Below are positions 742 to 18,212 of a stretch of 32,000 bases of DNA, piece after piece (position 1 is the stretch's first letter; each line of letters begins with the position of its first letter). The stretch is from Geobacter sulfurreducens PCA. Lineage in GTDB: Bacteria; Desulfobacterota; Desulfuromonadia; Geobacterales; Geobacteraceae. Position numbers and translations under genes: made by a program. The notes beneath the pieces are model-generated. The model did not search any database and was not told the origin of the DNA. It saw only the letters and a program-made list of their open reading frames with translations. The stretch spans positions 1,530,001-1,562,000 of the forward strand of contig NC_002939.5 of NCBI RefSeq assembly GCF_000007985.2, in the 5' to 3' direction.

Positions 742-3700
742 TTACTGGATCGTCAGGTTGTTGACCACGAGCGCGCCGTTGGTGATGGTGAAGACCCCCT
801 GCAGGGTCGTCATGCCGGTGCTGGTGCCGAAGAGCGCGTCGTAACCGCCGCGGAACGTGACGGTGCCGGTGGTGTTCAGGTTGACTGCAGGTTCGACGAA
901 CAGAACCCCAAAGGCCTGGATGGTGTTGCCTGAAGCCGCTGCAGTGAATGCGGCCGCCAGGCTCGGATAGTAGGTAGTGTTGATCCGGACCGGGTTGGTG
1001 GTGGGCGAGATGCCTGTACCACTCAGGCTGATGTTCGGCACGGGAGAGGCGGCGTCATTGGAAGTGATCTGCAGGTTAGCCGTCACAATCCCTGCTGTCG
1101 TGGGAGCGAACGTGACGGAGAAGGTGCAGTTGGCGGCCGGGGCGATCGTCACCGGCAGGGTGCCGCAGGAACCGTTCTGGATCGTGAACATGGCCGCATT
1201 GCCGCCCGATGGGGTGAACGCGGTTACATCAAGGGGCAGTTGTCCGGTGTTGGTTACGGTGATGTTAGTCGGGCTCGAGGTGAAGCCGACGGTTACGTTA
1301 CCGAAGTTTGCCGTCAGCGGGGAAACCGTGATTATCGGTCTGGAGATGACGGCCGTGTCGGCGGAAAGGACGTTGGACACCGGCGAATCGCCGAGGGCGT
1401 TGTAGGCGACTACCCGATACCGGTAGGTGGTCGTCGAGTTGACCGCCAGGTCGGTATAGCTGGTGGCGTTCGCCAGAGCCGTCCCGATGGGGGCGAAGTC
1501 GGTGCAGCTGCTGCCGGCGCAGCGCTCGACCCGGAAGCCGATTTCGTTTTTCGGGTTGCCCAGAGTCGTGGGCGCGCTCGGCGGCGTAGAATCGGTCCAG
1601 TTGAGCACCACGCTGTTGACGGTGACGATGGCCGTGTTCAGGGTCGGCGCGTCCGGCAGGTTGGTGACGGGAATGAACTGCATGGGCCGCATCATGTCGT
1701 TTTCTTCATGGCTCAGGATGTGGCAGTGCCAGACGTATTCCCAGTCGAAGTTCATGAATCGGTTGATGTTGGGCGTTGCCCATGCCTGACCGGTTGTCGG
1801 GTCGACCATGGAGAGCTCGGTGGTGTCGCCGAGGGGGGTTGCCGGGTTCAGGGGACGGAAGCTGTTGGGCACGCCGAACGGCATCTTGGGCTTAACCGGC
1901 TTCATGGCGACGATGGTGTCCTCGAGCGGACTGATCCGGACGGTATCCTTCCAGCCCAGTTCGGTGGGGTCGGGCAGGCGGATGAAGCCGTCCCAGCCGA
2001 CCCGGTTGAGCACCTGGACGTCGAAGAGGTGGAAGTGGACCGGGTGCGTGTCCACGCCGTTGTGGGTGATTTTCCAGATCTGGATGCCGTCTTCCTGGAG
2101 CACTTCCGTTGCCGGGTCGCTGTAGGTCTGGACGATGAAGTTGACGCGGCCGGCGCCGGGGGTGATCAGTTCGAGGCCGAGGGCGGCGCGCATGCGGCCG
2201 TAGTCGTCGAAGGTTTCGCCCTGCTCGTCCTGGATCGCCTTGAACTTCATGGGCATGCCGCCTTTGGTGGTCTTGGTGGGATCCCAGGGCAGGGGCGTGG
2301 TGTCGGCAGGGTTGTACTGGTAGGTGGTTGATCCGTCGCTGCCGATGAAGTTGAGGACCTTGTCGTTGATGCGGGAGACGCCCCAGTTGGGCCACGAGGT
2401 GGGGAACACCCGGTCGTAGGCCTTGTTGTAGGCATCATAGGTTTCGGGGAACAGGAAGGCGCTGAAGACAGCAGGGTCGCCGGCGGGGTTCATGTTGCCC
2501 TGACCCACGATGATCGGGTCCTGTGAGCGCTGGAAGACGCTGGGCTGGCCTCCGGAGTTGCTGCCCGAGGTGAAGGCGGCCTGCAGCGCGGCGAGGTTGA
2601 AAGGAGCACCGGCGCCGGCTGCGACGCGAATTTTCATGATGGTGCGGGTGTTGGGGCCGAAGCCGGCCAGCGTGGTGTCGGCGCCGCCCATGGCGCGGTT
2701 GTCCGGTGCGCCGGTGTAGTAGTCGTAGTGCGGATCAATTGCGGGCCAGGGGGCAGGCGCGTCATTGTAGAGGATCAGGGTCTGTCCGGCGTACTGGGAG
2801 AAGTCGACGATCACGTCGGCCCGTTCGGCGGGGCCAAGTATGAGCGAGCCGCCGTTGACGTTACCGGCGTTGAAGGTGGTTACGTCGTTGTTCCAGGTGA
2901 CCGGGTGGCTGGGAATGACCACGGGCTTGGGCAGGAAGCCGCCCTCGGTGCCGATCATGACCCAGTCGGGACCCCGGGTGGTCCAGTCGGGGATGCCGCC
3001 GGGACGGCCGTCGGCAGGCCACGTGGCGGGCCAGGTCGGATCCGTCGAGTAGTCCAGGGCCGGAAGCATTTTCACTTCTGTCTCGGTGGCACAACCGCCG
3101 AGCGCCAGACACTTGGCGTCGGAGCCCGGCGTGGCGTTGGGATCCACCGTCGGATCGGCCTTGTAGAGCTGCAGGTTGACGAACCGGTCATGGTTCGCGT
3201 TGAGGACGCGGAGCCGGTAGGGCTTGGGATCCACGTCGACGACCGGATAGGCGGTGCCGTTGACGAGGGGGGTATCCATGAACGCTTCAGCTCCCCATGA
3301 AGGGTTGGGGGTGCTCGGAATCTCGGGGGGCTGGCAGAACTGGCCGTAAGGGCCGCCCAGCAAGCCAGGCGTGGTGGCGGGGTCGCCCGCCGGATCGCAC
3401 GCAGCACTGTAGTAGGGGTTGGGGATCGGCTGGAACGGGTTGTTGGTGGCGGGCCAGAAGTAAGGTCCGTAGGCCCAGCGTCCCATGGGGGCGATGCCGG
3501 TGATGTCGAAGGGGTTCTGGGCCGGCATGTAGACGTGGGGCCACCAGAGATCGCCCTTGACCGGCGTCATGGGACCGGTTCCCGTCCAGGGCTGGCTACC
3601 CCAGGCCCAGGTAGGGTCGGTGGCGACGATGGTGGCCGGGTCAACGAAGGTCTTGTCTTCAATGACCAGCGGAAGCTCCGCGGAAGGGATGGTTCCGGCG

Positions 3701-4653
3701 GTGATCAGTTCCTGCTCCACAGCGTCCCTGATCAGGTAGCCGGCCGCCTCGCCCACGTAGACGTTGAGGCGGGTGATGCCCCAGGCGTGGTCATGGTAAA
3801 ACAGCATGCGGGAGCTCTGCTGGTTGGTCCAGTAGTAGGTCTGGGCGCCGGGACCCGGGTCGGGCATGTCCGGTACGTTTTCCACGCTGACCCCCGTGGG
3901 GTAGTCGGTCATCTCGCCGGCGGGGGTGATCCACTGGTGAGGGGTGCCGTCACTGATCCAGGGGGTGCGGCCGCCGTGCAGGTGCAGTTCGGCCCGGTTC
4001 TGGGTGAAGGTGCCCGACTTGAGGGCCGTTGCCTGCTTCGTGACCGGATCGTAGTCGATCTGGAAGGGACCCGAGCCCATGACCGTCTGGTCGACGGGGA
4101 TGAAAAGGTTGCCGCCGGCGCCGGTGGGGAGCTTGTTGATGAACTTTACCCGTACGGGCCGGTCCTTCTGGGCAACGATAATGGGGCCCAGGTGACGGGG
4201 GCCGGGTGCCGGAGCCACGGTGTTGTTGGCTGTCGTACAGGGGGTGGCCAGGTTCAGCGACGGATCGGTACACGAGGTCGTGTCAGTGCCGTTGTTCACC
4301 TGGACGTAGCCCCGCAGGGTGGTCGGCGGCAGGTCGGAATGCATCTGCTCCGAGTATTGCCGCAGTTCGATTTCGTAATAATCGGAGCCGGGGTAGGTGG
4401 TGATGTCGGGTACGGCCACGGACAGAAACTGCCCTAGGTTGTTGGCGTTGCCGCTGCCGAGTCCCGGCAGGGTGTCGACGAATTTCCGCATGGGCGGGCT
4501 GTTCGCCCAGTTGGGGGTGGTCAGGTAGTCCGGCGTATCGCCGGGACCGATGGGGGTCTTGTCCGGCTTGAGGAACGCCAGCGCGGTGCCGGTACCGGAC
4601 CCGAGAGTGAGAATCGCTATGGCCGTGGCCAATAACATGCGTGCGGAAGTCAT
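742..4653 (-). CDS. ompB: Large secreted multicopper oxidase with a fibronectin type III-like domain and a C-terminal beta-rich extension (OmpB-like)
   Basis: Four copper-ligand motifs are present: LHLHGG, FYHDHAWG, HPVHFHLFD and WHCHILSHEENDMM (HCHxxxHxxxxM). There is an N-terminal signal peptide (LLATAIAILTLGSGTGTALA). An FN3-like segment (LNWTDS...YRYRVVAYNALGDS) follows the oxidase core. The SD AAAGGAGA lies upstream; ATG at 4653 is preferred over the TTG at 4659 used by the ORF track. The gene symbol comes from recollection of Geobacter sulfurreducens OmpB and is not verified. Confidence 0.9.
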   Translation of the reverse strand: MTSARMLLATAIAILTLGSGTGTALAFLKPDKTPIGPGDTPDYLTTPNWANSPPMRKFVDTLPGLGSGNANNLGQFLSVAVPDITTYPGSDYYEIELRQYSEQMHSDLPPTTLRGYVQVNNGTDTTSCTDPSLNLATPCTTANNTVAPAPGPRHLGPIIVAQKDRPVRVKFINKLPTGAGGNLFIPVDQTVMGSGPFQIDYDPVTKQATALKSGTFTQNRAELHLHGGRTPWISDGTPHQWITPAGEMTDYPTGVSVENVPDMPDPGPGAQTYYWTNQQSSRMLFYHDHAWGITRLNVYVGEAAGYLIRDAVEQELITAGTIPSAELPLVIEDKTFVDPATIVATDPTWAWGSQPWTGTGPMTPVKGDLWWPHVYMPAQNPFDITGIAPMGRWAYGPYFWPATNNPFQPIPNPYYSAACDPAGDPATTPGLLGGPYGQFCQPPEIPSTPNPSWGAEAFMDTPLVNGTAYPVVDVDPKPYRLRVLNANHDRFVNLQLYKADPTVDPNATPGSDAKCLALGGCATETEVKMLPALDYSTDPTWPATWPADGRPGGIPDWTTRGPDWVMIGTEGGFLPKPVVIPSHPVTWNNDVTTFNAGNVNGGSLILGPAERADVIVDFSQYAGQTLILYNDAPAPWPAIDPHYDYYTGAPDNRAMGGADTTLAGFGPNTRTIMKIRVAAGAGAPFNLAALQAAFTSGSNSGGQPSVFQRSQDPIIVGQGNMNPAGDPAVFSAFLFPETYDAYNKAYDRVFPTSWPNWGVSRINDKVLNFIGSDGSTTYQYNPADTTPLPWDPTKTTKGGMPMKFKAIQDEQGETFDDYGRMRAALGLELITPGAGRVNFIVQTYSDPATEVLQEDGIQIWKITHNGVDTHPVHFHLFDVQVLNRVGWDGFIRLPDPTELGWKDTVRISPLEDTIVAMKPVKPKMPFGVPNSFRPLNPATPLGDTTELSMVDPTTGQAWATPNINRFMNFDWEYVWHCHILSHEENDMMRPMQFIPVTNLPDAPTLNTAIVTVNSVVLNWTDSTPPSAPTTLGNPKNEIGFRVERCAGSSCTDFAPIGTALANATSYTDLAVNSTTTYRYRVVAYNALGDSPVSNVLSADTAVISRPIITVSPLTANFGNVTVGFTSSPTNITVTNTGQLPLDVTAFTPSGGNAAMFTIQNGSCGTLPVTIAPAANCTFSVTFAPTTAGIVTANLQITSNDAASPVPNISLSGTGISPTTNPVRINTTYYPSLAAAFTAAASGNTIQAFGVLFVEPAVNLNTTGTVTFRGGYDALFGTSTGMTTLQGVFTITNGALVVNNLTIQ

Positions 4654-4744
4654 GATCAAATGTCTCCTTTGTGCTGGCTATAACCCGTCGGAACCGGGTG
4701 TTGCTGGCTTCAGGCTACTCATTAGTGCGGCCGGCCCACGGTTG

Positions 4745-5635: not shown

Positions 5636-7339
5636 TCACGGAATGACCCATTCGCTGCGCCGTTCGAGCTTGGGCGATTCTCCTTTGCCGAGCTGCACGA
5701 TATAGCACCCCTTGGATGCATAGCGCTGGCCCGGACCGAAGCTGACCCGCTCGTAGAGGGGGTAGTACATGTCGGTCATCATGCCGATGCTGTCCAGCAG
5801 GAAGTCCCGGTAGTATTCCGCCCGCATTTCCATCAGTGCCTTGCCCAGGACCTCGCCGGTGATGAACGACTCCCGGATGATCTTCTGGTCAAAGGACTGG
5901 ATGTCTTTGCCGGGCAGAACTTTTTTCACGGCAATGTCGAAACGGACGTCTTCCTGGGGCAGCCGGTAGGGGTAGGTCAGGTAGAGGCGGTCACGCAGCG
6001 GCTCGGGAATGCTCCAGAGCGCTTTGCCCAGATAGGTGCCGGAGGCCAGGAGGACCGTCGGTTGTTCTTCCTTGCCGGCTGCGGCTCCGGTCAGGGCGGG
6101 CAGGGCCGAATCGTCGTCCCAGACCAGCAATGCCGCTGGCCGGCGGGTGTCGAGGATCTCCCTGATCAGCTTGTCCGTGAGGCGTTCCCCCTTGGTCAGG
6201 CGGATGTCGAGGGGGGCGGCGTGCCCACGCTGCTGCCAGATGGTGCGGAATCCATCGGCCAGGGCCTCGCCCTTGCGGCTATCCCTGATCACCTGAACCA
6301 CGGGGCGGTTGCCGAAGAGGCCCGCCATGCCGTTGAGGTACCGGGCGGCGGCTTCCCCTTCCTGCCTGACGCCGCGCGAAAAATAGAGTGTGTACCAGTC
6401 GGTGTCGGAGATGACCGGGTAATCGACCACGGGGAAAAGGTTGGGGATGCGGTTCTCCTCGCAGAACCGGTGCACCGGTTCCCACTCTCCCTCGGAGATT
6501 CCGCCAAGCAGGGCGAAGACCGGTTCGTTGCGGTAGTATTGGTCAAGCTGGGCCCGCCAGGTTTCGGGCGGACCTTTCAGGGTCCAGCGGGACAGGGTGA
6601 AGCTCATACTGTGGAGGTCGCCGAGCATGTTGTACGCCATGCGCGCCACCCGGGAATTCTTCTTGGCCGCAAGGGTGAGACTGTTTTTCCGGTCTACGCT
6701 GAACTGGATGGGGGTCAGCATGGATTCTACCGCAAGAGGGTTGGTTCCCTCCACGATCACCGTGGCGAACTTGATCTCAGATGTGCCGACGCCCGGTGAC
6801 GGTTTGTCGGAGAGCGCCTTCAGGTAGGCGATGAGGATTGCCATGTCCCGGTCGCCGAGTTCGTAGCGGGGCATCACGTAGAGTACCGAGCGGCCGGTGG
6901 GGTCGATCCCCGTGGCGATCAGGCTTGCCAGCGTTTCGTCGGTGTAGGCCGGCCTGACCGGCAGGTTCTTGGCGTAGTTGGAGACGGAGGGGATGAATTC
7001 CGAACCGGGAATGAACGGCTTGCGCTCCTGGTAGAGCACCCGGCCGTTGGTGGGGGGGGTGACCACCTCTCCTTCGAAGGAGCCGAGGCCGCTGTGCAGG
7101 TGGCAGCTTACGCAGGTGAATGCCGTGCCGTCCACCGGCACGTCTCCGCTCACGAACGCCTTCATGGGGGCACCCGAGGGGAGAACCCCCTCCCGGTACA
7201 TCCGTTCGCCCTGGCGCATCTCTTCGGGAGACAGCGCGGCGGTCGGCGCTGCGGCGCGGCCTGTCGCGGCGGAGCACAGCAGCATGAGCAGCATGGCAAC
7301 AGCGGAAAGAGCAAGACGTTTACCGGTCACGCAGATCAT
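5636..7339 (-). CDS. Periplasmic fusion protein: monoheme c-type cytochrome domain plus type-1 periplasmic binding protein (LivK/Peripla_BP_6-like) domain
   Basis: There is a signal peptide (LALSAVAMLLMLLCSAATGRAAA) and a single CXXCH motif (FTCVSCHLH) in the N-terminal roughly 100 aa. The remaining roughly 450 aa resemble branched-chain amino-acid/amide-type solute-binding proteins by eye. The ATGA overlap with the upstream SCO1 gene spans 7336-7339. Confidence 0.75.
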   Translation of the reverse strand: MICVTGKRLALSAVAMLLMLLCSAATGRAAAPTAALSPEEMRQGERMYREGVLPSGAPMKAFVSGDVPVDGTAFTCVSCHLHSGLGSFEGEVVTPPTNGRVLYQERKPFIPGSEFIPSVSNYAKNLPVRPAYTDETLASLIATGIDPTGRSVLYVMPRYELGDRDMAILIAYLKALSDKPSPGVGTSEIKFATVIVEGTNPLAVESMLTPIQFSVDRKNSLTLAAKKNSRVARMAYNMLGDLHSMSFTLSRWTLKGPPETWRAQLDQYYRNEPVFALLGGISEGEWEPVHRFCEENRIPNLFPVVDYPVISDTDWYTLYFSRGVRQEGEAAARYLNGMAGLFGNRPVVQVIRDSRKGEALADGFRTIWQQRGHAAPLDIRLTKGERLTDKLIREILDTRRPAALLVWDDDSALPALTGAAAGKEEQPTVLLASGTYLGKALWSIPEPLRDRLYLTYPYRLPQEDVRFDIAVKKVLPGKDIQSFDQKIIRESFITGEVLGKALMEMRAEYYRDFLLDSIGMMTDMYYPLYERVSFGPGQRYASKGCYIVQLGKGESPKLERRSEWVIP

Positions 7340-7917
7340 TTCAACCCCGCTTTGGTAAGTTCATTCATCAATTCTACGTTGCTGATGAGGCCATAGATCC
7401 TTGTCCATTTGCCGTCGACCGGCGAACGGATGAAGGTCAGGGGCTTGTGGTCCATTTTGTTCCGAAAGTAGGAATTGAAGGCGTTCATGACCCGGTCGAT
7501 GTCCTTGCGTGAGCCCGACAGAAAATCCCACCCCGGCTTGGCGCGGTAGCGCGCGAGGTAGTCGCGCATGACCTGGGGGGTGTCGTTTTCGGGGTCGATG
7601 GAGACGGACACCAGGTGGATTTTCTTCAAGTCAGGGCCCAGCTTGGTCTGGAGATTGGTGTAGGTGGCGGACAGGACCGGGCAGATGGTGGTGCAGGTGC
7701 CGAAGATGAAGTCAACCACCACGGGCTGGTTTGATTCGACGAGCTCCTTGAACCGGACCTTTTTCCCGTCCTGGTTGATGAGGGTCACGTCGGGCATGCT
7801 GTAGCTCTCTACGGAGCGCTGGTATGAACGGGATGCTGCGGTGGCATGACTTGCAAGGGCAAGGCAGGCGGCAATGGCCAGGAAGGAACGAAGGATCGGT
7901 CTTATGAGGGTATGCAT
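7336..7917 (-). CDS. SCO1/SenC-family thioredoxin-fold copper chaperone
   Basis: It carries the CxxxCP motif (FGTCTTICP), a conserved distal His (MDHKP) and a signal peptide (ILRSFLAIAACLALASHATAA) after the internal ATG at 7917. The ORF-track start at 8058 would add 47 non-signal residues. The start position is uncertain. Confidence 0.8.
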   Translation of the reverse strand: MHTLIRPILRSFLAIAACLALASHATAASRSYQRSVESYSMPDVTLINQDGKKVRFKELVESNQPVVVDFIFGTCTTICPVLSATYTNLQTKLGPDLKKIHLVSVSIDPENDTPQVMRDYLARYRAKPGWDFLSGSRKDIDRVMNAFNSYFRNKMDHKPLTFIRSPVDGKWTRIYGLISNVELMNELTKAGLK

Positions 7918-8068
7918 GCGGATGTCATGACCTCCGGTCGAATTTGTCAAAGGGATCACTTGCTGGTTGCGATGAACGCACGATTGGGTATTAGCATAGC
8001 CGACAGCCGGCGGTTTGTCCAAAGCGCCCAACAAATTTTTGTTGGTAAATTGTTTCACTAGCCTTGTG

Positions 8069-9133
8069 CTACAGCCATCTCTTGCGCCGGAAGAATATTC
8101 CCATACCCAGGCTTACCAGGAGCATCAGCAGGAGAACGGCCGGGTAGCCCCAGTGCCATTCGAGCTCGGGCATGTAGCGGAAGTTCATGCCATAGACCCC
8201 GGCGATGAAGGTGAGCGGCATGAAGATGGTGGCGATGATGGTGAGCACCTTCATCACTTCGTTGGTCCGGTTGCCGATGGCGGAGAGGTAGATGTCGAGG
8301 ATCTCCGACAGGAGGTCCCGGAAGGTCTCCACGGTTTCGATGATCTGGATGCAGTGGTCGTAGACGTCCCGCAGGTAGATGACGGTTTCGCCGCGCACCA
8401 GGGGCGATTCGCGCCGCTCCAGCCGTCCCAGCACCTCTCGCAGGGGCCAGACGGATTTGCGCAGAAAGATGGTTTCCCGCTTGAGGTGCTGGATCTTCAC
8501 GACCGTCTTGCGGCTGGGGCCGGCGATGACTTCTTCTTCCAGTTCCTCGATCCGCTCGGCCAGATCTTCGAGGATCACGAAGTAGTAGTCCACAATGGCG
8601 TCCATGAGTGAGTAGAGCAGAAAGTCGGACCCGCTCTTGCGAAGCTTGCCCCGGTTTTCCCTCAGGCGCCGGCGGATGGAGTCGAAGAGGTCTCCCTTGA
8701 ATCCTTCCTGGAAGGAGATGAGAAACGAGGGGCCGAGCACGAAGCTGACCTGTTCCGCGGTAAGCGAGCCATCCGGCTGGAGGGAGAGCATCTTCAGGAC
8801 CACGAAGAGATAGTCGTCGAAGTCCTCCAGTTTGGGGCGCTGGTCGGTATTGAGGATGTCTTCGAGGGTGAGGGGGTGGATACCGTAGCATTCGCCGAGT
8901 GTCTTGAGCAGTTCGGGCCGGTGGATACCCTCCATGTCGAGCCACCGCACCCCCGGCTGGTCGCTATGGGGAAAACACTCGGCAATGTCGTCCGTTTCCC
9001 GCTCGCTGATGCTCGTTTCGTCGTAGTCGACAAGGGATATCCGGACCGGTTCGCCGGTCTGCTCGCCGATGTGGACCAGACTGCCGGGAGGAAGGCCTGT
9101 CTTGCGGGAACGTTGCTTGATGATTTTTTTCAT
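8069..9133 (-). CDS. corA: CorA-family Mg2+/Co2+ transporter
   Basis: The C-terminus has two TM helices and the YGMNF signature (GVYGMNFRYMPEL). The length of 354 aa is typical. Confidence 0.92.
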   Translation of the reverse strand: MKKIIKQRSRKTGLPPGSLVHIGEQTGEPVRISLVDYDETSISERETDDIAECFPHSDQPGVRWLDMEGIHRPELLKTLGECYGIHPLTLEDILNTDQRPKLEDFDDYLFVVLKMLSLQPDGSLTAEQVSFVLGPSFLISFQEGFKGDLFDSIRRRLRENRGKLRKSGSDFLLYSLMDAIVDYYFVILEDLAERIEELEEEVIAGPSRKTVVKIQHLKRETIFLRKSVWPLREVLGRLERRESPLVRGETVIYLRDVYDHCIQIIETVETFRDLLSEILDIYLSAIGNRTNEVMKVLTIIATIFMPLTFIAGVYGMNFRYMPELEWHWGYPAVLLLMLLVSLGMGIFFRRKRWL

Positions 9134-15732: not shown

Positions 15733-16695
15733 TTAGTGCATCGTTTTGAGGGGAAATGCGCATGGCCTCATGCGCAGCAGAAATTTTCGGCCGTCATAGA
15801 TGGTTTCCAGAAGAAGGCCCCTGTCGATGAGCCGTTCCACCTCTGACCAGTCGGTACCTGCCTTGACCAGAAGCTCACGCGCGGCATCTTCCCGCAAGGG
15901 ATGAACGCCCGTGATGCCGAGCAGGTCGGCGGTCACGTCTCCACTGCCGGTAAAGTCGTTCCCTTCGTAGCCGGTGAGGTATTCCACTCGCTCAACGCTT
16001 CCCGAAATAATCTGCACGGCCCGATTGAGGGCCTCGGCTGTCGGCGGCGTCGCCCACCGCTCCGTCGGCGGCCTGATAGGAACTGCGACATAGGAGACGT
16101 CCGGTTTCAGCTCCCCCAGAAACGCCGCAAGCATCTCCAGTTCGGTTTCGGAGTCATTGATGCCGCTCACCAGCATGGTCTCAGTGGCGAGTGTCCCCGT
16201 GAACTCTTCGGCAAACAGGGCCATTCCGCTCAAGAGGTCGGCGAGCCGCAGGGTGGCGGCCGGCCTGTTGATGCGGTGCCATGCGTCCCCGTCCACTGCA
16301 TCCACCTTGAGGGAAACCCAATCCGCCAGGGCAAGTTCGGCCCTTACGTCGGAACGCCAGATGAGCGAGCTGTTGGTGATGACGGCGATTTTTATGCCGA
16401 GGGGTCTGAGCAGCTCGATTTCTCTCCCGAGGTTCAGGTCAAGGGTCGGTTCACCGTCGGCCACAAACGTAAGGTAATCGATCCGTTCGCCCCGTTCGAT
16501 GAGTCTGCGGACCGCCCGCTCAACCTCGACGGCAATGGTTTCCGGGCGGCAGAAGCGGCGCCGGGCGCTCTGAATGGAGCAGGTCCGGCCCAACTGGCAG
16601 TAAACGCAAGAATAGGAACATGCCTTGGCAGGTATGGTGTCGAGCCCGAGGCTGCGCCCCAGGCGTCTGGATGGTACCGGTCCGAAGATGAACAT
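15733..16695 (-). CDS. Radical SAM protein of unknown specificity
   Basis: It has the CxxxCxxC cluster motif (CSYSCVYCQ) close to the N-terminus. The N-terminus MFIFGPVPSRRLGRSLG is typical of a widespread radical SAM subfamily. ATG 16695 has AAGGAAGA upstream. The alternative ATG 16737 lacks an SD. Confidence 0.8.
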   Translation of the reverse strand: MFIFGPVPSRRLGRSLGLDTIPAKACSYSCVYCQLGRTCSIQSARRRFCRPETIAVEVERAVRRLIERGERIDYLTFVADGEPTLDLNLGREIELLRPLGIKIAVITNSSLIWRSDVRAELALADWVSLKVDAVDGDAWHRINRPAATLRLADLLSGMALFAEEFTGTLATETMLVSGINDSETELEMLAAFLGELKPDVSYVAVPIRPPTERWATPPTAEALNRAVQIISGSVERVEYLTGYEGNDFTGSGDVTADLLGITGVHPLREDAARELLVKAGTDWSEVERLIDRGLLLETIYDGRKFLLRMRPCAFPLKTMH

Positions 16696-16819
16696 GATGC
16701 GTCCGTCTTCCTTGAGCACTACGGTTCGTCCGGGCATGCACCCGGCAAGATCATGAATTCATCCCAAAGTATACCCTGTTCGGAAATATATTCCAGAGAC
16801 GACCGTGACTCTTGGCAGC

Positions 16820-17071
16820 TCAGGGAAGGGTCAGGTGGCGAAGCGTTGCCCGGATTTCCTCTATGCCCACGGCCGTGCCGAAGCATCCCGCCCCGGCAAA
16901 GGGATCGTACTCCCTGATTTGCGAAACAAGGGTCTCCACCAGATGGGTACGGTCACCATACCGCTCCGGGTCGTCGGCGATGCCCAGTACATCGGCCAGC
17001 AGCCATTCCGGGAATTCACCCTCCGCATTCTGCCGGAGGGCAACCTCTCTGAGTTCTTCGAAGACGTCCAT
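16820..17071 (-). CDS. Hypothetical acidic 83-aa protein, last gene of the Fe-S/selenoprotein operon
   Basis: ATG at 17071 is preceded by the SD GAAAGGA at 6 nt spacing and lies 11 nt after the selenoprotein stop. The composition looks coding (MDVFEELREVALRQNAEGEFPEWLL...). I recognise no family. Confidence 0.55.
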   Translation of the reverse strand: MDVFEELREVALRQNAEGEFPEWLLADVLGIADDPERYGDRTHLVETLVSQIREYDPFAGAGCFGTAVGIEEIRATLRHLTLP

Positions 17072-17082
17072 ACGCAGTCCTT

Positions 17083-17328
17083 TCAGCCTGAGGTGCCATG
17101 ACGCCGGGCGCGGATAGCCGGGATAATGTCCAGCGGTTCCGGCATCCGGCCCCGTTCGAGGCGGGAGAAAATTATCTCTCCGTCCAGGTACACGGCAAAT
17201 TCGCTCCGCGGTGCCTGTTTGTCGAGTTCCACCGATACATTCTCCTCCGTCTGCTCGATCAAGCGGGCCAGACCGGCCGCAATGGGATACTGGCTTCAGG
17301 TGGGGCAGAACAGGATCCTGACGTTCAT
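17083..17328 (-). CDS. SelW/SelT/SelH (Rdx)-family selenoprotein, 81 aa, with in-frame UGA (Sec) at codon 11 (coordinates 17296-17298)
   Basis: My minus-strand translation is MNVRILFCPT-U-SQYPIAAGLARLIEQTEENVSVELDKQAPRSEFAVYLDGEIIFSRLERGRMPEPLDIIPAIRARRHGTSG. It has a CxxU redox motif at the position of CxxC/CxxU in Rdx proteins, plus the family-typical F.V.(L/V)DGE.I(F/W)SR...GR.PE block. The ATG overlaps the mrp stop (ATGA). A SECIS-like hairpin lies downstream of the UGA. The gene is not visible in the ORF track. Confidence 0.8.
17263..17280 (-). promoter_or_regulatory. Candidate bacterial SECIS element
   Basis: The mRNA sequence GCGGCC-GGUCU-GGC(C)CGC forms a 6-bp GC stem with one bulged C and a GGUCU apical loop. 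It starts 16 nt after the UGA, placing the loop about 22-26 nt downstream. Loop sequence and distance are comparable to the E. coli fdhF SECIS as I recall it. Confidence 0.6.
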
Positions 17329-18212
17329 TGTCCGCCCTCCCGTGCTGCGTTGACGGCGGTATCGCAACGGGCCGCGACGGTCGCCACAATTTCGGCAAAG
17401 GCCTTTGCCGTGGGGGAATCGGCCCGGTGTTCCACCAGGGGCTCCCCTTCGTCGCCGGCTCTGACCATGGCCGGGTCCAGCGGAATCCTGCCCAGGAAGG
17501 GCACGCTCATTTCATCGGCCATGAGCTTGCCGCCGCCGCTCTTGAAGATGTCGACCCCTTCGCCGCAGTGGGGGCAGACAAAGCCGCTCATGTTCTCGAC
17601 TACGCCGATGACCGGCAGCTTCATCTGACGGCAGAAGGTGACCGACTTGCGCACGTCGGTGAGCGCAACGTCCTGGGGAGTGGTGACGATGACGGCGCCC
17701 TCCGCCCCTTCCAGAAGCTGGATCACCGAGAGAGGCTCATCACCGGTCCCTGGCGGGCAGTCGACGATCAGGTAGTCCAGATTACCCCACTCCACGGCGG
17801 CCAGAAACTGCTTGATGACGCCGTGTTTGGCCGGTCCCCGCCAGACTACCGCCTCGGCCTGGTCGCGCAGCAGCAGCCCTACCGACATGACTTTGAGGGT
17901 GTCGCTGTAGGGAACCGGTTCGATCCGGGCGGCAGTTGCCGGAAGCCGGCCCTCAATGCCGAGAAGGGTCGGGATGCTTGGCCCGTGCAGATCGACATCC
18001 AGCAATCCCGTTTTCTTGCCGCTGAGCGAGAGGGCCACGGCCAAGTTGACCGCCACCGAGCTCTTGCCCACGCCCCCCTTGCCCGACAGCACCACGATCT
18101 TGTGCTTGATGTTGAAAAGGGCTTCCTGCAGTTCGATCTGCTCTTTGAGCCGGTGCAGCTCTTCCACCTGCTCCCTGTTGCATGATTTTTGCGCTACCTT
18201 TTCACCCTGCAT
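17325..18212 (-). CDS. mrp: Mrp/ApbC/NBP35-family P-loop ATPase (Fe-S cluster carrier)
   Basis: It has the deviant Walker A motif GKGGVGKSS, the CPHCGE (CxxC) cluster-bridging motif, and DYLIVDCPPGTGDE. ATG 18212 has GAGGTG 8 nt upstream. The ORF-track start is the GTG at 18221. Confidence 0.9.
   Translation of the reverse strand: MQGEKVAQKSCNREQVEELHRLKEQIELQEALFNIKHKIVVLSGKGGVGKSSVAVNLAVALSLSGKKTGLLDVDLHGPSIPTLLGIEGRLPATAARIEPVPYSDTLKVMSVGLLLRDQAEAVVWRGPAKHGVIKQFLAAVEWGNLDYLIVDCPPGTGDEPLSVIQLLEGAEGAVIVTTPQDVALTDVRKSVTFCRQMKLPVIGVVENMSGFVCPHCGEGVDIFKSGGGKLMADEMSVPFLGRIPLDPAMVRAGDEGEPLVEHRADSPTAKAFAEIVATVAARCDTAVNAAREGGQ

What the first reader, a model, noticed from the sequence alone, without database searches (positions are those of the whole stretch)
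17083..17328. Hidden SelW/Rdx-family selenoprotein gene: in-frame UGA in a CxxU motif plus a SECIS-like hairpin
Between the Mrp gene and the 83-aa ORF, the ORF track shows only a 192-aa Arg/Gly/Pro-rich reading frame that looks non-coding. Translating the minus strand from ATG 17328, which overlaps the mrp stop as ATGA, gives MNVRILFCPT, then TGA (17296-17298). Reading through the TGA gives a clean 70-aa continuation in frame: SQYPIAAGLARLIEQTEENVSVELDKQAPRSEFAVYLDGEIIFSRLERGRMPEPLDIIPAIRARRHGTSG. The layout matches the thioredoxin-fold Rdx family (SelW/SelT/SelH and their bacterial CxxC homologues): a beta-strand, then CxxU near the N-terminus, then the F.V.vDGe.i.SR...GR.PE block. Sixteen nt after the UGA the mRNA can form GCGGCC-GGUCU-GGC(C)CGC, a GC stem with a G-starting apical loop at the distance expected for SelB-dependent recoding. 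Standard gene callers would miss or truncate this gene.
Basis: partly seen in the sequence, partly recalled or inferred. Interest (0 to 1): 0.8.

Follow-up and report, generated by a model that had tools for sequence, protein, structure and literature searches.

The report
Known Geobacter SelW-like selenoprotein gene

Summary
The minus-strand ORF at 17328-17083 starts at an ATG that overlaps the mrp stop (ATGA). It has an in-frame TGA at 17296-17298 inside C-P-T-U and encodes 81 aa.

With Cys at the UGA, the protein scores above the curated cut-offs of Pfam Rdx (55.2 bits, cut-off 22.6) and TIGR02174 CXXU_selWTH (38.6 bits, cut-off 34.2). The UGA aligns with the second Cys of the CxxC in the solved Rdx proteins MIEN1 and SAV_2001.

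All 22 distinct related genes I recovered that carry the codon have TGA at this position. They come from Geobacter, a planctomycete and metagenomes. Five more distant relatives have Cys there.

A 6-bp hairpin with a 5-nt (G/A)G(U/G)YU loop sits at a fixed register, +19 to +35/36 from the UGA. It covaries at synonymous sites, with a covariation score of 0.318 against 0.073 in shuffles (0/500). A covariance model built only from other clades hits the window once, exactly here (30.3 bits, E=6e-5).

The window is Geobacter sulfurreducens. The identical 81-aa sequence, with U at position 11, is listed as 'SelW-like' in Additional file 4 of Zhang et al. 2006 (PMC1794560), which also records SelA, SelB and SelD for this organism.

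The parts
17083..17328 (-). Complete SelW-like (Rdx-family) selenoprotein CDS: 81 codons including Sec11, plus the stop TGA at 17083-17085
   Evidence: Translation. Pfam Rdx 55.2 bits covering residues 2-73. TIGR02174 38.6 bits. Identical to the published G. sulfurreducens SelW-like sequence.
17325..17328 (-). ATGA overlap: the start ATG (17328-17326) of the selenoprotein gene overlaps the stop TGA (17327-17325) of mrp, which suggests translational coupling
   Evidence: Sequence. The same overlap occurs in L001-L006 and L008.
17336..17340 (-). Shine-Dalgarno GGAGG, 7 nt upstream of the ATG
   Evidence: Read directly. Purine-rich SD-like motifs also precede the predicted starts in L009, L010 and L011.
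17305..17307 (-). Cys8 codon (TGC), first residue of the CxxU redox motif
   Evidence: Invariant in the alignment of orthologues.
17296..17298 (-). In-frame UGA read as selenocysteine (Sec11)
   Evidence: TGA is conserved in 22 distinct related genes and replaced by TGC in 5 Cys-forms. It aligns with the second Cys of CxxC in 2LJK and 3DEX.
17275..17280 (-). SECIS 5' arm GCGGCC (+19 to +24 from the U of UGA)
   Evidence: Covariation tests. CM alignment.
17270..17274 (-). SECIS apical loop GGUCU (+25 to +29). G26 and U29 are invariant and U27 nearly invariant across the family.
   Evidence: Alignment A3 and the loop list.
17263..17269 (-). SECIS 3' arm GGCCCGC (+30 to +36) with one bulged C, placed at +34 (17265) by Infernal
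   Evidence: The CM alignment inserts one C and forms all six pairs. The bulged structure scores -9.0 kcal/mol.
17325..18212 (-). Upstream neighbour: Mrp/NBP35 (ApbC-type) Fe-S cluster carrier ATPase, 295 aa
   Evidence: Exact match to AAR34783.1 / ADI84248.2.
16820..17071 (-). Downstream neighbour: 83-aa 'GSU3529 family' ORF, starting 11 nt after the selenoprotein stop
   Evidence: Exact match to ADI84246.1, and cluster members are named GSU3529 family protein. No Pfam hit.

Best explanation
Coordinates 17328-17083 (minus strand) are the SelW-like (Rdx-family, thioredoxin-like fold) selenoprotein gene of Geobacter sulfurreducens.

Translation starts at the ATG that overlaps the mrp stop codon. 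At codon 11 the ribosome meets UGA. A hairpin in the mRNA, 15 nt further on, has a 6-bp stem, a 1-nt 3' bulge and a GGUCU loop. This hairpin recruits SelB-GTP-Sec-tRNA(Sec), so selenocysteine is inserted instead of translation terminating. The product is an 81-aa protein with a C8-P-T-U11 redox centre placed after the first beta-strand.

What is shown:
- the gene structure
- family membership
- the Sec/Cys correspondence
- conservation of the UGA
- covariation in the hairpin
- the identity of the organism
- prior publication of the sequence

What is inferred from established knowledge of bacterial Sec decoding: SelB binding to the loop, actual Se incorporation, and a thiol/selenol oxidoreductase activity. 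The physiological substrate is unknown.
For: 1. Family: Pfam Rdx PF10262 at E=8.2e-15 and 55.2 bits (cut-off 22.6), aligned over residues 2-73 of 81. TIGR02174 CXXU_selWTH at 38.6 bits (cut-off 34.2).
2. Redox motif: phmmer against the PDB finds MIEN1/C17orf37 (2LJK, E=5e-5) and SAV_2001 (3DEX, E=4e-4). FCPT[U] aligns with YCEPC and YCTQC.
3. UGA conservation: present in a ~95%-identical strain (L001-6), in L007, in three Geobacter MAGs and Ca. Uabimicrobium, and in 18 metagenome loci. Five relatives carry Cys at that column.
4. SECIS: the helix 19-24/30-35 is 84.2% paired against 71.1% in shuffles (0/500). Its covariation score is 0.318 against 0.073 (0/500), and all slid registers score 0.135 or less. 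Excluding the window's clade gives 90.6% paired and 0.367.
5. Synonymous sites: pair 21:33 joins two synonymous Ala third positions and reads CG 8, GC 8, UA 2, UG 1, other 1. Pair 24:30 reads CG 17, AU 2, GC 1.
6. Cys-forms: the distant Cys-forms lack the hairpin.
7. Covariance model: a model built from 16 elements outside the window's clade gives one hit in the window, at 17251-17298(-), at 30.3 bits and E=5.8e-5. The runner-up has E=0.37.
8. Organism: ten window proteins are exact matches to G. sulfurreducens PCA/KN400 records.
9. Prior publication: the identical 81-aa sequence with U11 is in Additional file 4 of PMC1794560 under SelW-like. Table 3 of that paper lists SelD, FdhA and SelW-like among 8 selenoproteins of this species. 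Its file of SelA/SelB/SelD/YbbB sequences has 4 G. sulfurreducens entries.
Against: - No Rfam family matches the element, even at E<=10.
- The hairpin alone is not more stable than shuffled sequence (z=-1.3; z=+1.17 for 61 nt).
- The 48-nt MFE is a competing fold (-12.7 kcal/mol), and helix pair probabilities are only 0.39-0.69.
- RNAalifold run de novo picked a register shifted by 3 nt, with weak energy (-2.18 kcal/mol).
- Four of the six pairs are dictated by the Ala-Ala-Gly-Leu-Ala-Ala codons, so only two pairs are independent witnesses.
- No sel gene and no tRNA-Sec lie in the window, so the machinery rests on the literature.
- No direct evidence of Se incorporation was found for this protein.
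Confidence: 0.95

Rival explanations
1. The TGA is a genuine stop. The locus is then either a decayed Rdx pseudogene or a 10-codon leader followed by an independent 59-aa ORF that starts at TTG 17262.
For: Gene callers take exactly this view. Public catalogues hold 59-aa and 50-aa products that start after the TGA. All real hits of the exhaustive search are such fragments.
Against: - The ten codons upstream of the TGA (M-x-V/I-x-I-x-F/Y-C-x-x) are conserved in frame from Geobacter to a planctomycete and many metagenome lineages, always with TGA or Cys at the same column.
- The Pfam model aligns from residue 2, across the TGA.
- A 59-aa fragment would lack the first beta-strand and the redox motif.
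- The truncated starts differ between lineages, which points to caller artefacts.
Confidence: 0.02
2. The UGA is read through, but not as selenocysteine. One route is near-cognate Trp or Cys insertion. The hairpin would then be only a by-product of the GCN-GCN-GGN-YUN-GCN-GCN codons for the conserved peptide AAGLAA.
For: Four of the six stem pairs follow automatically from those codons. The hairpin is not unusually stable. Rfam has no match. One Cys-form, L027, also keeps the hairpin.
Against: - The two free pairs, both between synonymous third positions, covary: 19/20 and 20/20 sequences are paired using 3-4 different pair types.
- Shuffle and slide controls fail to reach the observed score.
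- Loop positions G26 and U29 are invariant although third-codon positions could vary.
- Distant Cys-forms lose both the peptide motif and the helix.
- The codon sits at the redox Cys position, the classic Sec/Cys exchange site.
- The organism is a documented Sec decoder.
Confidence: 0.03

Closest known systems
Bacterial SelW-like selenoproteins (Kryukov & Gladyshev / Zhang & Gladyshev selenoproteome surveys; PMC1088965, PMC1794560, PMC2398784)
   Same: It is one of them. The exact sequence is listed for G. sulfurreducens. It shares the CxxU motif about 10 residues from the N-terminus, the length of about 75-80 aa, and a SECIS immediately downstream with a small G-containing apical loop.
   Different: Nothing essential differs. 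Within the family, the Geobacter clade carries CPTU-SQYPIAAGLAR and a 1-nt 3' bulge in the SECIS stem, where most members have a perfect 6-bp stem.
Eukaryotic selenoprotein W / SelT / SelH / Rdx12 and MIEN1 (Pfam Rdx, PF10262)
   Same: It matches the same Pfam family and has the CxxC/U after the first beta-strand. The C-terminal block aligns with MIEN1 (2LJK).
   Different: Eukaryotic members use a 3'-UTR SECIS and SBP2/eEFSec (PMC1088965). Here the SECIS lies inside the coding sequence, directly after the UGA. Sequence identity is low (PDB hits only at E of 1e-4 to 1e-5).
Bacterial Cys-containing Rdx proteins of solved structure (SAV_2001, 3DEX; Atu0228, 2FA8)
   Same: Similar length, and the CxxC is at the homologous position. 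SAV_2001 was already noted as the best match of the G. sulfurreducens SelW by Chaudhuri & Yeates 2005.
   Different: They have Cys instead of Sec and no SECIS. The distant Cys-forms recovered here lack the hairpin.
E. coli fdhF SECIS (the SelB-binding paradigm)
   Same: It is a hairpin within the ORF a short distance after UGA, with an apical loop containing G-U (GGUC) and a single bulged nucleotide. The comparison with fdhF is from my own knowledge of the literature and was not tested here.
   Different: The loop G-U lies at +26/+27 here against +23/+24 in fdhF, and the bulge is on the 3' side rather than the 5' side. SelB binding was not tested.

Membership tests
Rdx family (Pfam PF10262) / TIGR02174 CXXU_selWTH | Profile HMM score above the curated cut-off over the whole domain | tested here: met
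   PF10262 at 55.2 bits against 22.6, residues 2-73 on profile positions 1-73 of 74. TIGR02174 at 38.6 bits against 34.2.
Rdx family (Pfam PF10262) / TIGR02174 CXXU_selWTH | CxxC or CxxU redox motif near the N-terminus, after the first beta-strand | tested here: met
   C8-P-T-U11 aligns with YCEPC of MIEN1 (2LJK) and YCTQC of SAV_2001 (3DEX). C8 and position 11 are invariant in the orthologue alignment.
Rdx family (Pfam PF10262) / TIGR02174 CXXU_selWTH | Thioredoxin-like alpha/beta fold | not tested
   Only sequence similarity to solved Rdx structures is available.
NF041051 SelTWH_Campy (NCBIfam equivalog) | Score above the equivalog cut-off of 88 bits | tested here: not met
   40.9 bits. The protein is not a member of the Campylobacter-type equivalog, only of the broader subfamily.
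Bacterial selenoprotein gene | In-frame UGA at a position occupied by Cys in homologues | tested here: met
   Five Cys-forms (L013, L019, L020, L021, L027) carry TGC at the column where 22 distinct genes carry TGA. The Cys of solved structures also falls there.
Bacterial selenoprotein gene | Coding conservation on both sides of the UGA across species | tested here: met
   The alignment of readthrough proteins at 37-95% identity has I5, C8, Y14, P15, A17, G19, L20, A21, V46, D49, E51, F54 and S55 invariant. Differences from the ~95% strain are mostly synonymous in this frame.
Bacterial selenoprotein gene | SECIS: stem-loop immediately downstream of the UGA with a small apical loop containing G | tested here: met
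   6-bp helix at +19 to +35/36 with a 5-nt loop (G/A)G(U/G)YU. Covariation is 0.318 against 0.073 in shuffles, 0/500. The CM hit is at 30.3 bits, E=5.8e-5. [quoted passage not shown]
Bacterial selenoprotein gene | Genome encodes SelA, SelB, SelD and tRNA-Sec | not testable with these tools
   None are in the 32-kb window, and the genome itself could not be searched. Literature: G. sulfurreducens is listed as a Sec decoder with 8 selenoproteins including SelD and FdhA, and it has 4 entries in the SelA/SelB/SelD/YbbB sequence file.
Bacterial selenoprotein gene | Selenium demonstrably incorporated into the product | not testable with these tools
   No experimental report for this protein was found in the papers read.
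Rfam SECIS families | Match to a curated SECIS covariance model | tested here: not met
   No match at gathering score or at E<=10 in 17000-17450. This shows only that none of the curated Rfam models matches this family-specific element.

The most novel reading that the evidence does not exclude
In the G. sulfurreducens lineage the SelW-like gene is translationally coupled (ATGA overlap) to the Mrp/ApbC-type Fe-S cluster carrier. It sits in a DUF134, IscU/NifU_N, Mrp, SelW-like, GSU3529, radical-SAM gene string. The selenoprotein could therefore act as a dedicated selenol/thiol reductant in Fe-S cluster assembly or transfer, which would give a first physiological role to bacterial SelW-like proteins. 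The evidence does not exclude this, but the linkage is clade-specific. It appears only in close relatives and L008. Divergent SelW-like genes have unrelated neighbours.
Probability: 0.1. Interest if true: 0.4.

Novelty: already known. Interest (0 to 1): 0.08.

Why it matters
The finding has little discovery value. The gene, its Sec codon and its family assignment have been in the literature since 2005-2006 (PMC1242214, PMC1794560), and NCBIfam and Pfam have models for the family.

Its value is practical.
- It is a clean positive control, showing that a reader working from raw sequence can correctly recognise a bacterial selenoprotein gene.
- It illustrates a persistent annotation gap. Two very large protein catalogues contain only N-terminally truncated fragments of this subfamily. 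Accession numbering also suggests that several Geobacter genome records have no entry for it.
- The family-wide SECIS alignment and model built here (A3, A4, R1) could be used to rescue such genes.

Tried and rejected
- Rfam scan of the whole window and a permissive scan of 17000-17450 found nothing at the site.
- Single-sequence folding gave no significant stability, so I rejected it as evidence either way.
- RNAalifold run de novo on the 20-sequence alignment chose a register shifted by 3 nt with weak energy. I rejected that register because explicit pair counting gives it 64% paired and covariation 0.135, against 84% and 0.318 for the proposed helix.
- The word-indexed protein search with the Cys-substituted protein returned only two truncated hits.
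Rerun with the 59-aa C-terminal part, it gave only truncated fragments plus two spurious repeat proteins.
- An exact-sequence look-up of the 298-aa Mrp ORF failed because the listed ORF start is not the annotated start. It succeeded with the 295-aa form.
- Look-up of the full-length protein with U is not accepted by the tool. The X and C versions are not in the collection.
- I searched for conserved gene neighbourhood as a functional clue. Neighbours of divergent SelW-like genes are unrelated to one another (sigma-54 activator, PagL, UbiA, nitroreductase, pyridine nucleotide-disulphide oxidoreductase, HAD, ABC-F and others), so no family-wide context exists.
- No sel genes or other TGA-interrupted genes turned up among the window's large ORFs.

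Full report
**1. What is in the sequence**

Read on the minus strand, 17328-17083 translates as MNVRILFCPT, then TGA (17296-17298), then SQYPIAAGLARLIEQTEENVSVELDKQAPRSEFAVYLDGEIIFSRLERGRMPEPLDIIPAIRARRHGTSG, then TGA. The ATG overlaps the stop of the upstream Mrp/NBP35 gene as ATGA, and a GGAGG lies 7 nt upstream of it. The mechanical ORF list shows only two things here. One is a 192-aa frame (16820-17398), which is the frame of the downstream 83-aa ORF running on upstream. The other is a 59-aa TTG-started fragment.

**2. Family membership**

With Cys placed at the UGA, the 81-aa protein matches Pfam Rdx (PF10262) at E=8.2e-15 and 55.2 bits, against a cut-off of 22.6. The match covers residues 2-73, so it runs across the UGA. 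It also passes the NCBIfam subfamily model TIGR02174 'CXXU_selWTH' (38.6 bits against 34.2). It does not pass the Campylobacter equivalog NF041051 (40.9 bits against 88). A search of the PDB by sequence finds the Rdx-fold proteins MIEN1/C17orf37 (2LJK, E=5e-5) and SAV_2001 (3DEX, E=4e-4). In both alignments the query's C-P-T-[UGA] sits on their CxxC, YCEPC and YCTQC.

**3. Homologues: is the UGA conserved, and does Cys replace it?**

- The word-indexed search of 5.8 billion proteins returned only two hits, of 59 and 50 aa, both starting after the UGA.
- The exhaustive HMMER search of 1.84 billion representatives returned six real hits, all again N-terminally truncated. It found no full-length Cys-form of this near subfamily.
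- The DNA behind the truncated proteins shows the same upstream codons and the same TGA. This holds for L001-L006, one strain about 95% identical whose differences in this frame are mostly synonymous, and for L007.
- A scan of one genome per species found four loci: three Geobacter MAGs and the planctomycete Ca. Uabimicrobium amorphum. All four have TGA at the same column (CPTU, CATU, CATU, CQKU).
- A metagenome scan with the alignment found 23 loci. Eighteen have TGA and five have Cys (CVPC, CPRC, CTRC, CTRC, CVQC) at that column. One of the two search patterns demanded Cys, so the scan was biased against Sec-forms if it was biased at all.

This is the classic Sec/Cys signature of a selenoprotein family.

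**4. The SECIS element**

All Sec-forms carry a hairpin at a fixed register counted from the U of UGA. The stem is +19-24 paired with +30-35, and the loop is +25-29, reading (G/A)G(U/G)(C/U)U. G26 and U29 are invariant.

There is a caveat. The peptide here is Ala-Ala-Gly-Leu-Ala-Ala (GCN GCN GGN YUN GCN GCN), which fixes four of the six pairs automatically. The two free pairs join synonymous third positions, and they covary.
- Pair 21:33 reads CG 8, GC 8, UA 2, UG 1, with one unpaired.
- Pair 24:30 reads CG 17, AU 2, GC 1.

| Measure | Observed | Shuffled | Shuffles reaching observed |
|---|---|---|---|
| Cells paired (20 sequences) | 84.2% | 71.1% | 0/500 |
| Covariation score (20 sequences) | 0.318 | 0.073 | 0/500 |
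| Cells paired (16 sequences, window's clade removed) | 90.6% | 76.2% | 0/500 |
| Covariation score (16 sequences) | 0.367 | 0.080 | 0/500 |

The best slid register in the 20-sequence set reaches only 0.135. The distant Cys-forms (L013, L019-L021) have neither the peptide motif nor the helix. One Cys-form close to the Sec-forms, L027, still has it.

A covariance model built only from the 16 elements outside the window's clade was run unfiltered over both strands of the window. It gives one clear hit, at 17251-17298(-), at 30.3 bits and E=5.8e-5. The next best hit has E=0.37. The window's clade (window, L007, L008, L012) shares this 1-nt 3' bulge.

The evidence on the other side is as follows.
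- Rfam has no match.
- The hairpin alone is not unusually stable: -9.0 kcal/mol, z=-1.3, and z=+1.17 for 61 nt.
- A competing 48-nt MFE fold exists.
- RNAalifold run de novo preferred the -3 register, weakly.

I conclude that the SECIS is real. What demonstrates it is comparison with orthologues, not thermodynamic stability.

**5. Organism and prior knowledge**

Ten window proteins are exact matches to Geobacter sulfurreducens PCA/KN400 records. They include CorA AAR34775, AccA AAR34777, Mrp AAR34783/ADI84248 and IscU AAR34784/ADI84249, and the 83-aa ORF is ADI84246, a 'GSU3529 family protein'.

Zhang, Romero, Salinas and Gladyshev 2006 (Genome Biol 7:R94, PMC1794560) list eight selenoproteins for G. 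sulfurreducens: SelD, FdhA, Prx-like, thioredoxin, AhpD homologue, glutaredoxin, HesB-like and SelW-like. Their Additional file 4 contains, under '#SelW-like >Geobacter_sulfurreducens', the sequence MNVRILFCPTUSQYPIAAGLARLIEQTEENVSVELDKQAPRSEFAVYLDGEIIFSRLERGRMPEPLDIIPAIRARRHGTSG. That is identical to the window's product. Their file of SelA/SelB/SelD/YbbB sequences has four G. sulfurreducens entries.

Chaudhuri and Yeates 2005 (PMC1242214) also mention the short SelW of G. sulfurreducens, with S. avermitilis BAC69712 as its match. The Sargasso Sea study found SelW-like to be the most abundant selenoprotein family, with a CxxU motif and unknown function (PMC1088965). The same 2006 paper notes that SelW-like proteins have few or no Cys homologues in Sec-decoding organisms. 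That fits my failure to find a near Cys-form.

**6. Mechanism**

Shown: the gene structure, family, Sec/Cys correspondence, a conserved and covarying hairpin at a fixed distance, and an organism that decodes Sec.

Inferred from the established bacterial pathway: SelB-GTP-Sec-tRNA(Sec) binds the apical loop, whose conserved G-U is at +26/+27, and delivers Sec to the UGA in the A site. The product is a small thioredoxin-fold protein whose C8xxU11 forms a selenenylsulfide redox couple. The ATGA overlap suggests translational coupling to mrp. The substrate is unknown.

**7. Context**

The gene lies in a minus-strand string: ACR3/SBF transporter, DUF134, NifU_N/IscU, Mrp, SelW-like, GSU3529, radical SAM. 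The Mrp, SelW-like, GSU3529, radical-SAM order recurs only in close relatives and in L008. Divergent SelW-like genes have unrelated neighbours. A functional tie to Fe-S cluster trafficking is therefore possible but clade-specific and speculative.

**8. Verdict**

The gene is already known, since the identical sequence was published in 2006. Interest is low. The only practical point is that automated catalogues still truncate this subfamily.

Noticed in passing
L001-L006 (e.g. L001:1880-2123); window equivalent 15733-17071: In a ~95%-identical Geobacter strain the SelW-like gene is intact with its TGA. The downstream GSU3529-family ORF is decayed: ATG has become ACG, and tblastn finds only fragments in two frames. 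The radical-SAM gene is absent, and RluB lies directly adjacent.
   Followed up: partly
window 17083-17328 and its flanking genes: Accession numbering hints at uneven annotation. KN400 has a free number (ADI84247) between the GSU3529-family ORF (ADI84246) and Mrp (ADI84248). In three other Geobacter records the two neighbours are consecutive (BBA69906/07, BEH10613/12, BET57784/85), which leaves no protein entry for the selenoprotein. This is inference only.
   Followed up: partly
P0003-P0006, P0008, P0009 (protein catalogue hits): Every genuine hit of the exhaustive search is an N-terminally truncated fragment that starts just after the position of the UGA. P0003, for example, starts MISIAAGLARL. 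Public metagenome protein catalogues therefore appear to mis-call this subfamily systematically.
   Followed up: partly
L027:593-802: This Cys-form (CVQC) is close to the Sec-forms and still keeps the SECIS-like hairpin (GCAGUC AGUUU GGCUGA). The distant Cys-forms have lost it. This may reflect a recent Sec-to-Cys change or a purely protein-level constraint.
   Followed up: no
window 7707-7752 (+) and 8014-8057 (-): These are the second and third best hits of the SelW-type SECIS model (12.3 bits, E=0.37; 9.0 bits, E=1.8). They lie within or beside the SCO1/SenC-like thioredoxin-fold ORF at 7336-8058. Neither is significant, and neither is in frame with an interrupted ORF.
   Followed up: partly
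It is an artefact of ORF listing.
   Followed up: yes
window 742-4659 (-): A 1305-aa ORF has a multicopper-oxidase domain and Ig-like (HYDIN/ASH) domains, followed by an SCO1/SenC gene (7336-8058) and CorA (8069-9133). This may be a copper-related cluster.
   Followed up: no
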